Source: Eledone cirrhosa (taxonomy: Eukaryota). Taken from it: a stretch of DNA of 64,000 nt. This document shows positions 6,746 to 6,939 of this stretch, piece after piece. The DNA is taken from NCBI GenBank assembly GCA_964016885.1, contig OZ024742.1, positions 141,856,001-141,920,000 on the forward strand. Direction: 5' to 3'. Position 1 is the stretch's first letter, and the number at the start of each line of letters is the position of its first letter. The notes beneath the pieces were generated by a model. The model made no database searches. It had not been told where the DNA came from and saw only the letters and a program-made list of their open reading frames with translations. Position numbers and translations under genes: made by a program.

Positions 6746-6750
<5 letters not shown>

Positions 6751-6939
6751 AGTAAGTAAGACCCCGACGGCTGAGCTCAAGCCGTTTCGACGGCTAATTC
6801 TGTACAGAATTAGCCGTCGAAACGGCTTGAGCTCAGCCGTCGGGGTCTTACTTACTCCTATTACCCACTCTACTACCCTAAGTATTGAGTACTTTGGTGC
6901 GTTATGGTCCACCTGGTTCCTTGCCACTTTTCCCTCGCT
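6746..6939 (+). mobile_element. Non-autonomous palindromic element (116-bp perfect palindrome plus ~80-nt tail) in (TA)n, copy 1
   Basis: 6746-6803 is the exact reverse complement of 6804-6861. It contains a hammerhead 3' half GAAAC-GGC-TTGAGCTCA-GCC-GTC. A second copy lies at 53580-53773. Confidence 0.85.

What the first reader, a model, noticed from the sequence alone, without database searches (positions are those of the whole stretch)
6746..6939. Perfect palindrome folded exactly at hammerhead stem II, with copy-specific variants present in both arms
Seen: the palindrome centre GACGGCTAATTCTG-TA-CAGAATTAGCCGTC sits where stem II would be. It is followed by GAAAC-GGC-TTGAGCTCA-GCC-GTC, but the CTGAnGA half is replaced by the mirror of the 3' half. 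Copy 1 has GGAGT in both arms, and copy 2 (53580) has GGAAC in both arms. Inference: the inverted arm is regenerated by fold-back synthesis at the ribozyme's own hairpin, or homogenised by intra-hairpin conversion, which removes the catalytic core.
Basis: partly seen in the sequence, partly recalled or inferred. Interest (0 to 1): 0.72.

Follow-up and report, generated by a model that had tools for sequence, protein, structure and literature searches.

The report
Penelope stubs joined at transcription start
This hairpin is one of about 11,000 head-to-head stubs of a Penelope-type jumping gene in this genome, likely made when both cut DNA strands copied the element's RNA and ran off its likely capped start, which appears to lie inside the loop of its hammerhead ribozyme, and not by folding back at the ribozyme stem.

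Summary
The 116-bp palindrome is real. It is two head-to-head short ends of a Hydra-clade Penelope-like retrotransposon inserted in (TA)n; 11,139 such short palindromes occur genome-wide. The parent carries a type I hammerhead with a U3-A8 core (TTGAnAA), not CTGAnGA. The centre lies in loop II, and GGAGT/GGAAC are subfamily markers, not copy-private variants. Arms do match by locus (96 of 115), but fold-back is not the general route: the tail-less arm often holds sequence the other arm lacks (3.2 kb versus 83 nt in one locus), and later mutations are not homogenised (104 one-arm, 7 shared). About 85% of arms stop in a 13-nt window about 30 nt below a TATA-like box, with an untemplated G enriched 5:1 before a pyrimidine-A. 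A second family stops 29-30 nt below TATAAATA, upstream of its ribozyme. Best reading (inferred, no RNA data): twin-primed reverse transcription from two internal starts, 80 nt apart, running off the capped RNA end. Inverted ends with a one-sided tail are known in Penelope elements, and this scan reached the same reading on other DNA of this genome.

The parts
6749..6805 (-). Tail-less inverted arm: pLTR from +17 to -40 (coordinates relative to the GUC cleavage site); joins (TA)n at CC|TA
   Evidence: 60 of 65 scored tail-less arms end at CC|TA at +17
6802..6938 (+). Tailed arm: pLTR from -40 to +97
   Evidence: identical to the pLTR of ORF-bearing copies such as L065
6802..6805 (.). GTAC self-complementary overlap where the two arms join, one base short of the inferred start site A(-41)
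   Evidence: sequence directly; same centre in 9 of 80 held palindromes
6808..6818 (+). 3' strand of hammerhead stem II (its partner, 35-45 nt further upstream in the parent, is missing)
   Evidence: alignment and pair counts on 14 parent arms, 98.7% of cells paired, no two-sided changes
6819..6846 (+). GAAA core half, 5-bp stem III with near-palindromic loop TTGAGCTCA, GUC triplet (predicted cut after 6841), 3' strand of stem I
   Evidence: type I hammerhead layout as in PMC4209133
6859..6938 (+). 80-nt one-sided tail; in full-length copies it leads on into the 5' UTR and ORF
   Evidence: L065; 98 of 100 tails end in TA-rich flank and 2 run into the ORF
6696..6748 (.). (TA)n target, left flank
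6939..6961 (.). (TA)n target, right flank
53583..53636 (-). Copy 2, tail-less inverted arm (+17 to -37), GGAAC subfamily
53639..53773 (+). Copy 2, tailed arm (-38 to +97), preceded by a 2-nt filler at 53637-53638

Best explanation
The palindrome is a dead insertion product of a Hydra-clade Penelope-like retrotransposon: two short copies of the element's end joined head to head in (TA)n, likely made by two reverse transcriptions, one from each cut DNA strand, that ran off the likely capped 5' end of the element's RNA. Shown: family identity, (TA)n target, fixed outer ends at +17 and +97, independent inner ends, a pile-up of inner ends at -35 to -47, and excess untemplated G before A(-41). Inferred: the element's RT-endonuclease cuts both strands of (TA)n. 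One strand primes at +97 and the other at +17 of the RNA, which gives the 80-nt one-sided tail. Most RNAs begin at about A(-41), 30 nt below TATTTAAA, inside loop II of the hammerhead, so both cDNAs end there after about 58 and 138 nt. The two ends are then joined through microhomology or filler (here GTAC). The catalytic 5' half is missing because it lies upstream of the RNA start. Longer copies come from priming at the 3' pLTR of the transcript, with random truncation of each arm.
For: Parent element: L065 holds pLTR, tail, an ORF with RWR, DKT, YRDD, CxCX5C, GIY-YIG-like, CxxC and CxH motifs, and a second pLTR, matching the Hydra diagnosis in PMC8557442 section 11. Independent arms: in 35 longer loci the tail-less arm is longer by 50 nt or more in 10, the tailed arm in 10, about equal in 6, and 9 were not scorable; L061 has 3,230 against 83 nt. 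Among the first 100 of 21,160 tail matches, 67 had a tail-less arm close by; it is longer by 10 nt or more in 13 and shorter in 4, and in 2 it does not overlap the tailed arm at all. The arms of L072 differ at 7 of 175 positions, including subfamily markers. Pile-up: 38,820 arms reach -35, 4,862 reach -48, and 4,750 reach the core at about -87 (27 of 30 core arms match the -48 pattern). In the sample, 53 of 61 tailed arms that reach -35 stop by -47, a rate of 0.067 per nt against 0.002-0.007 in the long stretches on either side. Cap signature: G before A(-41) 3,688 times against A 739 times; 9 of 30 such G and 2 of 30 such A could come from the opposite arm. With those cases removed, G:A is 11:3 at -41 against 8:21 at other end positions, Fisher p = 0.003. 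Untemplated G marks copied caps in L1 and SVA (PMC4859970). Second family: 28,450 arms, 4,973 with TATAAATA upstream. Short arms end 2-7 nt above the CTGAnGA core, with A(-6) 29-30 nt below the TATA box, and 4 of 5 arms ending at -6 have G next. Optimal TATA spacing is -31/-30 in mouse (PMC1779604 abstract). A purified PLE protein cuts and extends both strands and starts at two internal sites that bound the tail (PMC11167929).
Against: The start site is inferred from DNA only. TATTTAAA is a non-canonical box, and some subfamilies have TATTCAAA or TATTCATA. Ends spread over 13 nt and some reach -45 to -47, so a second start or nibbling must be assumed. A small hairpin inside loop II has its 3' foot near -38 and could also stall the enzyme. 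In the Anolis protein both strands used the same start sites, whereas here each arm type has its own. Deletions inside palindromes after insertion could mimic part of the asymmetry in short copies. For a single perfect copy such as 6746-6861, fold-back cannot be excluded. The 100-copy sample comes from the first 29 Mb of one contig. The family-2 end counts are small (27 arms scored, 6 unresolved at 0), and 14 of its first 30 loci were long copies. Concordant arms do not tell whether one RNA or two were used.
Confidence: 0.72

Rival explanations
1. Two cDNAs are primed as above, but they stop because the RT stalls at RNA structure (stem II plus the small hairpin in loop II) on a longer RNA, not at the RNA's 5' end.
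For: A loop II hairpin is predicted with its 3' foot near -38. Ends are spread over 13 nt.
Against: The enzyme passes the GC-rich stems III and II with few stops (0.007 per nt). The G excess is specific to -41. In family 2 the stops fall beyond the whole ribozyme, at the same distance from a TATA box.
Confidence: 0.12
2. First reader's model, close to the self-priming idea in PMC3846280: one cDNA folds back on itself near stem II and copies itself, giving the inverted arm.
For: Arms match by locus (96 of 115). The parent has a near-palindrome around GTAC at -40 to -37, and 9 of 80 centres sit there. 6 of 26 scorable long pairs are about symmetric. PMC3846280 reads head-to-head palindromes as self-priming.
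Against: The tail-less arm carries extra upstream sequence in 10 of 26 scorable long pairs and 13 of 67 short pairs, and 2 pairs have no overlap. L072 has arms from different templates. The fixed outer end at +17 (60 of 65) has no reason under fold-back. The centre is not at stem II, and in family 2 it lies outside the ribozyme.
Confidence: 0.1
3. The short palindrome is itself a mobile unit (a MITE-like or retrozyme-like master) that was amplified as such.
For: Very high copy number (11,139), near-constant size, and a few identical centres recur.
Against: 51 different centres in 80 copies. The same architecture runs continuously from about 200 bp to over 5 kb. The tail is on one side only, and the ends do not form terminal inverted repeats.
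Confidence: 0.04
4. Arms were made alike after insertion by gene conversion inside the hairpin.
For: 7 variants are shared by both arms of a locus, one of them seen only once (L037).
Against: 104 variants are in one arm only. Pairs up to 5.5 kb apart agree as often as hairpins (31 of 35 against 96 of 115). Most of the shared variants recur at other loci.
Confidence: 0.02

Closest known systems
Hydra clade of endonuclease-bearing Penelope-like elements (PMC8557442, section 11 read; Hydra-1_Obim listed in its supplement)
   Same: C-terminal GIY-YIG, RW(K/R), DKT, CxCX5C linker, CxxC and CxH motifs, (TA)n target, hammerhead in the pLTR.
   Different: The unit here is about 4 kb with a long 3' UTR (Hydra: generally under 3 kb). 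The hammerhead has a U3-A8 core and a loop II of about 38 nt. Two short motifs of this family and one of family 2 were not found in the text of the supplement, so identity with a named family is not shown.
PLE insertion unit with an inverted 5'-truncated copy and a one-sided tail (PMC8557442 passages; PMC3846280 passages and Discussion; PMC2377424 passages)
   Same: Head-to-head inverted pLTR, tail on one arm, microhomology joints, and a TATA box plus initiator noted in an Adineta pLTR.
   Different: The tail is 80 nt, not 30-40. Most insertions are ORF-less stubs whose two arms both end in one 13-nt window. PMC3846280 proposes self-priming, which the arm asymmetry here contradicts.
Poseidon element of Anolis, PAc (PMC11167929, parts 1-2 of 4 read)
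   Same: Two internal RT start sites bound the tail, both DNA strands are cut and extended, AT-rich targets, and uncleaved RNA is the main template.
   Different: Different clade. There the starts lie inside the ORF and showed no strand bias; here they lie in the 5' UTR and each arm type has its own start. Run-off at the RNA 5' end is not discussed in the parts read.
PLE hammerheads with palindromic helix III and the U3-A8 core (PMC4209133 parts 1-2; PMC3088659 passages)
   Same: Type I layout, short stem I, long stem II with a bulge, near-palindromic loop III, U3-A8 covariation, and opposite-strand pairs of motifs 100-700 bp apart noted in Schistosoma.
   Different: Much longer loop II that holds the inferred promoter, a 5-bp stem III, and one subfamily with C3 opposite A8.
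L1 twin priming and cap-derived 5' G (PMC4859970 passages)
   Same: Priming from both target strands gives an inversion; an untemplated G marks a copied cap.
   Different: In L1 the inverted piece is a different, upstream part of the RNA (recalled); here both primers start within 80 nt, so the same stretch is copied twice and a palindrome results.

Membership tests
Hydra-clade PLE (parent element) | Single ORF with RT and C-terminal GIY-YIG endonuclease | tested here: met
   L065 ORF read in two pieces around one stop: YRDD at 115 and IY...YIG at 359 of the second piece. Pfam gave no hit on these pieces; 768 relatives found, mostly unnamed.
Hydra-clade PLE (parent element) | RWK and DKT motifs in the N-terminal part | tested here: met
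   RWR at 37 and DKT at 117 of the first piece; definition
Hydra-clade PLE (parent element) | CxCX5C linker; CxxC and CxH around the conserved E and N | tested here: met
   CNCPDRSGC, CNLC, CKH
Hydra-clade PLE (parent element) | Insertion into (TA)n | tested here: met
   98 of 100 tails end in TA-rich flank; 60 of 65 tail-less arms end at CC|TA
Hydra-clade PLE (parent element) | Placement in the Hydra clade on an RT tree | not tested
   No named reference proteins were held; assignment rests on motifs
EN+ PLE insertion unit | Inverted 5'-truncated copy head to head, with a tail on one end | tested here: met
Type I hammerhead (parent pLTR) | Core CUGAnGA / GAAA / NUH, or a compensated variant | tested here: met
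   TTGAnAA (U3-A8) in 25 of 30, with only N7 varying among them; CTGAGAA (C3-A8 mismatch) in 5 of 30; U3-A8 is a known natural and active variant
Type I hammerhead (parent pLTR) | Stems I, II and III around the core | tested here: inconclusive
   17 pairs, 98.7% of cells paired, slid controls 12-58%, but no two-sided change in 14 closely related rows; no Rfam hammerhead hit
Type I hammerhead (parent pLTR) | Self-cleavage after GUC | not testable with these tools
   Weak hint only: in 2 of 67 sampled pairs both arms end exactly at the predicted cut (L229, L236)
Type I hammerhead (the stub at 6746-6939) | 5' core strand present | tested here: not met
   The stub ends at -40; the core lies at -85 to -79
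Non-LTR retrozyme | Head-to-tail tandem units, each with a complete type I hammerhead | tested here: not met
   Head-to-head, core absent; definition in 10.64898/2026.07.22.740005 part 1
MITE | Terminal inverted repeats at both ends and a constant interior | tested here: not met
   80-nt tail on one side only; 51 different centres in 80 copies

The most novel reading that the evidence does not exclude
This family's RNA polymerase II promoter sits inside loop II of its hammerhead, so every transcript starts in mid-ribozyme. The capped 5' end carries only the substrate half (GAAA, stem III, GUC), and the catalytic half exists only in the 3' pLTR. The ribozyme can then act only at the 3' end or as a split enzyme bridging the two RNA ends, while the tens of thousands of stubs are a genome-wide record of two-strand priming, of the start site at base resolution and, rarely, of cleavage in vivo.
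Probability: 0.25. Interest if true: 0.72.

Novelty: new member of a known kind. Interest (0 to 1): 0.42.

Why it matters
The stub itself is inert junk of a known class. But how Penelope-like elements make inverted ends and one-sided tails is still open: PMC3846280 proposed self-priming, and PMC11167929 leaves later steps unvalidated. Thousands of young copies here give a natural test. They favour priming from both strands over fold-back, place the RNA start by run-off and cap-derived G, and suggest that a promoter can lie inside a hammerhead loop. They also explain why such stubs are easily misannotated as MITEs, miRNA hairpins or broken ribozymes. My ten paper searches and the parts read showed no paper on run-off stubs at a PLE start site; most subscription papers are not in the library.

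Tried and rejected
Rfam scans found no hammerhead, only low-score miRNA hairpin matches; a long loop II and the U3-A8 core are likely reasons. Pfam found nothing on five ORF pieces, and the PDB sequence search gave only two matches near E 0.7. RNA runs: no RNA holder listed. Contigs of three runs of unknown kind were laid on 6500-7200: the family is abundant in X1 and X4, and tail-less arms joined straight to the tail occur there too, but no piece spans this locus and contigs cannot show RNA starts. The general repeat finder was swamped by microsatellites. The first arm-length script let loci match themselves and was replaced. The first pair count had a mis-registered structure and was replaced. 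A 3' splice-site reading of TTTTCATTYAG was rejected: arms often run past the AG and no constant upstream exon is joined. A canonical CTGAnGA progenitor was rejected as the main parent (7 in-register hits of 59). Assembly artefact was rejected: thousands of copies have different centres, fixed outer ends and one-arm mutations. Rows left out: identical pairs were collapsed; 9 of 35 loci were not scorable; loci chosen by the -42 base or by CTGAnGA were left out; arms more than 4 changes from any template were left out of the family-2 end table. No RT tree was built. Only text search was possible in the PMC8557442 supplement; figures S2, S7 and S8 were not seen and may bear on the clade call.

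Full report
1. Observation. Window 6746-6861 is a perfect palindrome with 58-nt arms and no spacer, followed by an 80-nt tail and flanked by (TA)n on both sides. A second copy at 53580-53773 is 93.9% identical, with one arm mismatch and a 3-nt centre. The hairpin is far beyond chance (z = -23.6). The right arm holds GAAAC, a 5-bp stem III, GUC and GGGG. Rfam reports no hammerhead. Below, positions count from the predicted ribozyme cut (after window 6841).

2. It is a very abundant family. Exact patterns give 21,160 tails, 38,820 arms that reach -35 and 11,139 palindromes with a centre of at most 30 nt. Centres differ: 51 types in 80 held palindromes, and copy 1's centre is the commonest (9). 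The outer ends are fixed. 60 of 65 tail-less arms stop at CC|TA (+17), and 87 plus 6 of 100 tails stop at GT|TA or GC|TA (+97). GGAGT and GGAAC are subfamily markers seen at many loci.

3. The parent. Longer copies lead to L065, which holds pLTR, tail, ORF, long 3' UTR and a second pLTR. The ORF, interrupted by one stop, has RWR, DKT, YRDD, CxCX5C, a C-terminal GIY-YIG-like motif, CxxC and CxH. These are the features given for the Hydra clade of Penelope-like elements, which also target (TA)n (PMC8557442, section 11). I built no tree. An inverted 5'-truncated copy with a one-sided tail is the textbook insertion form of these elements (PMC8557442 passages; PMC3846280 passages; PMC2377424 passages).

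4. The hammerhead. 4,750 arms keep the 5' half. The layout is stem I (CCCC/GGGG), core TTGAnAA, stem II G-NT-CGGCTA / TAGCCG-T-C closed by a loop of about 38 nt, GAAA, stem III, GUC. In 14 aligned arms 98.7% of cells pair, with no two-sided change, so the fold rests on motif order more than on covariation. The core is U3-A8 in 25 of 30 loci and C3-A8 in 5. U3-A8 is a known natural variant, also in PLEs (PMC4209133 parts 1-2; PMC3088659 passages). The predicted CTGAnGA parent is nearly absent: 59 hits, 7 in register.

5. Fold-back or two cDNAs? Both give the same final shape, but fold-back requires the tail-less arm to be contained in the tailed arm. It often is not. In 35 longer loci the tail-less arm is longer by 50 nt or more in 10, shorter in 10, about equal in 6, and 9 were not scorable; L061 has 3,230 against 83 nt. 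In the first 100 tail matches on contig C1, 67 had a tail-less arm nearby. It was longer by 10 nt or more in 13, shorter in 4, and did not overlap the tailed arm in 2. Secondary deletions could mimic some short cases but hardly the symmetric pattern in long ones. L072 has arms that differ at 7 of 175 positions, including subfamily markers. But 104 variants are in one arm only and 7 in both, so the match dates from insertion and not from later conversion. A purified PLE protein cuts and extends both target strands and starts at two internal RNA sites that bound the tail (PMC11167929 parts 1-2). That fits starts at +17 and +97 here. PMC3846280 (Discussion) favoured self-priming; these data argue against it as the general route.

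6. Why the centre sits where it does. Of 38,820 arms reaching -35, only 4,862 reach -48 (about 5,400 after allowing for the 27-of-30 match rate), and 4,750 reach the core 40 nt further up. In the sample, 53 of 61 tailed arms reaching -35 stop by -47, and 48 of 67 tail-less arms stop there. A(-41) follows a pyrimidine and lies 30 nt below the first T of TATTTAAA. The base before A(-41), where the template has C or T, is G 3,688 times and A 739 times. The opposite arm explains 9 of 30 G and 2 of 30 A. Without such cases G:A is 11:3 at -41 and 8:21 at other ends, p = 0.003. Untemplated G is the accepted mark of a copied cap in L1 and SVA (PMC4859970 passages), and -31/-30 is the optimal TATA position in mouse (PMC1779604 abstract). 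The pyrimidine-purine initiator rule is recalled. A TATA box and initiator were also noted in an Adineta pLTR.

7. An internal control. The palindrome at window 14277-14391 belongs to a second Hydra-type family. Its long arms have a canonical TATAAATA 35-39 nt above the CTGAnGA core (4,973 of 28,450 arms). Its short arms end 2-7 nt above the core, with A(-6) 29-30 nt below the box in the main subfamilies, and 4 of 5 arms ending at -6 have G next (small numbers). Here both arms keep the whole ribozyme. The centre thus follows the TATA box, not stem II.

8. Mechanism. Shown: family, target, fixed outer ends, independent inner ends, pile-up, G excess. Inferred: two-strand cut in (TA)n, priming at +17 and +97, run-off at a capped end near -41, and joining by microhomology or filler. 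In copy 1 both arms reach -40 and overlap on GTAC, which makes it perfect. The catalytic half is missing because it lies upstream of the RNA start. Against: no RNA evidence, a non-canonical box, ends spread to -47, a small loop II hairpin that could stall the enzyme, no strand bias of starts in the Anolis protein, and a sample from one contig arm. Fold-back cannot be excluded for any single symmetric copy.

9. Earlier findings. I wrote this reading down before looking (notes). Nothing was noted near this window or by sequence. Several unreviewed notes on other DNA of this genome reach the same twin-priming and start-site reading; they are not independent support. One (e1-9867358) calls its stub a fold-back. 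One (e1-8813754) pointed me to Hydra-1_Obim, which is listed in the PMC8557442 supplement.

10. Other papers seen. 10.64898/2026.07.22.740005, part 1 of 5, for the retrozyme definition. PMC13282606 passages, which list Penelope-like families in an octopus and do not contain the words palindrome or hammerhead in the main text.

11. Verdict. A real, ordinary stub of a known class (new member of a known kind). The lasting interest is that the family records two-strand priming and an RNA start inside the ribozyme loop, both directly testable. Interest 0.42.

Noticed in passing
window 14277-14391 (insertion about 14198-14403): A second head-to-head stub with a one-sided tail, from another Hydra-type family. 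Both arms keep a complete CTGATGA hammerhead and the centre lies just upstream of it. 28,450 arms genome-wide; long copies have TATAAATA 35-39 nt above the core. Used as control.
   Followed up: yes
window 15002-15817: Ten same-direction copies of the tail-less arm (GGAAC subfamily, about 53 nt), each separated by (TA)n and mostly sharing one junction; likely local tandem amplification through the microsatellite.
   Followed up: partly
window about 53230-53460 (+), just left of copy 2: Broken N-terminal fragment of a Hydra-type ORF close to family 2's ORF; these elements cluster in shared (TA)n-rich sites.
   Followed up: partly
window 10361-11869 (+), 42915-43669 (-): ORF pieces of further Hydra-like PLE families (RT with YRDD, cysteine linker, GIY-YIG-like end).
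   Followed up: no
L229, L236 (G000:C1:26063231, C1:26880256): Both arms end exactly at the predicted ribozyme cut; 2 of 67 sampled pairs. A possible trace of cleaved RNA used as template.
   Followed up: partly
L096, L110, L118, L121 and others: A subfamily with core CTGAGAA (C3 opposite A8), between the canonical and the U3-A8 forms; 5 of 30 loci. It has spread although the core pair is mismatched.
   Followed up: no
L223/L224 (G000:C1:25028862-25029900), L239: An arm ending at -40 or -44 is joined directly to an internal ORF position of another sense copy, as if the RT jumped from the RNA 5' end to a second RNA; a possible route to partial tandems.
   Followed up: partly
L152, L162, L266: More divergent relatives with changed stem II and stem III sequences form the same palindromes at about the same distance from GAAAC.
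   Followed up: no
G000: Family 2 matches are uneven between strands (15,694 against 12,756), which may point to a large tandem array somewhere in the genome.
   Followed up: no
window 151-2303 (-), 21726-25107 (+), 26024-28831 (-), 30255-31799 (-), 34455-36470 (-): Long, partly broken ORFs that look like LINE reverse transcriptases of several kinds; family names not tested.
   Followed up: no
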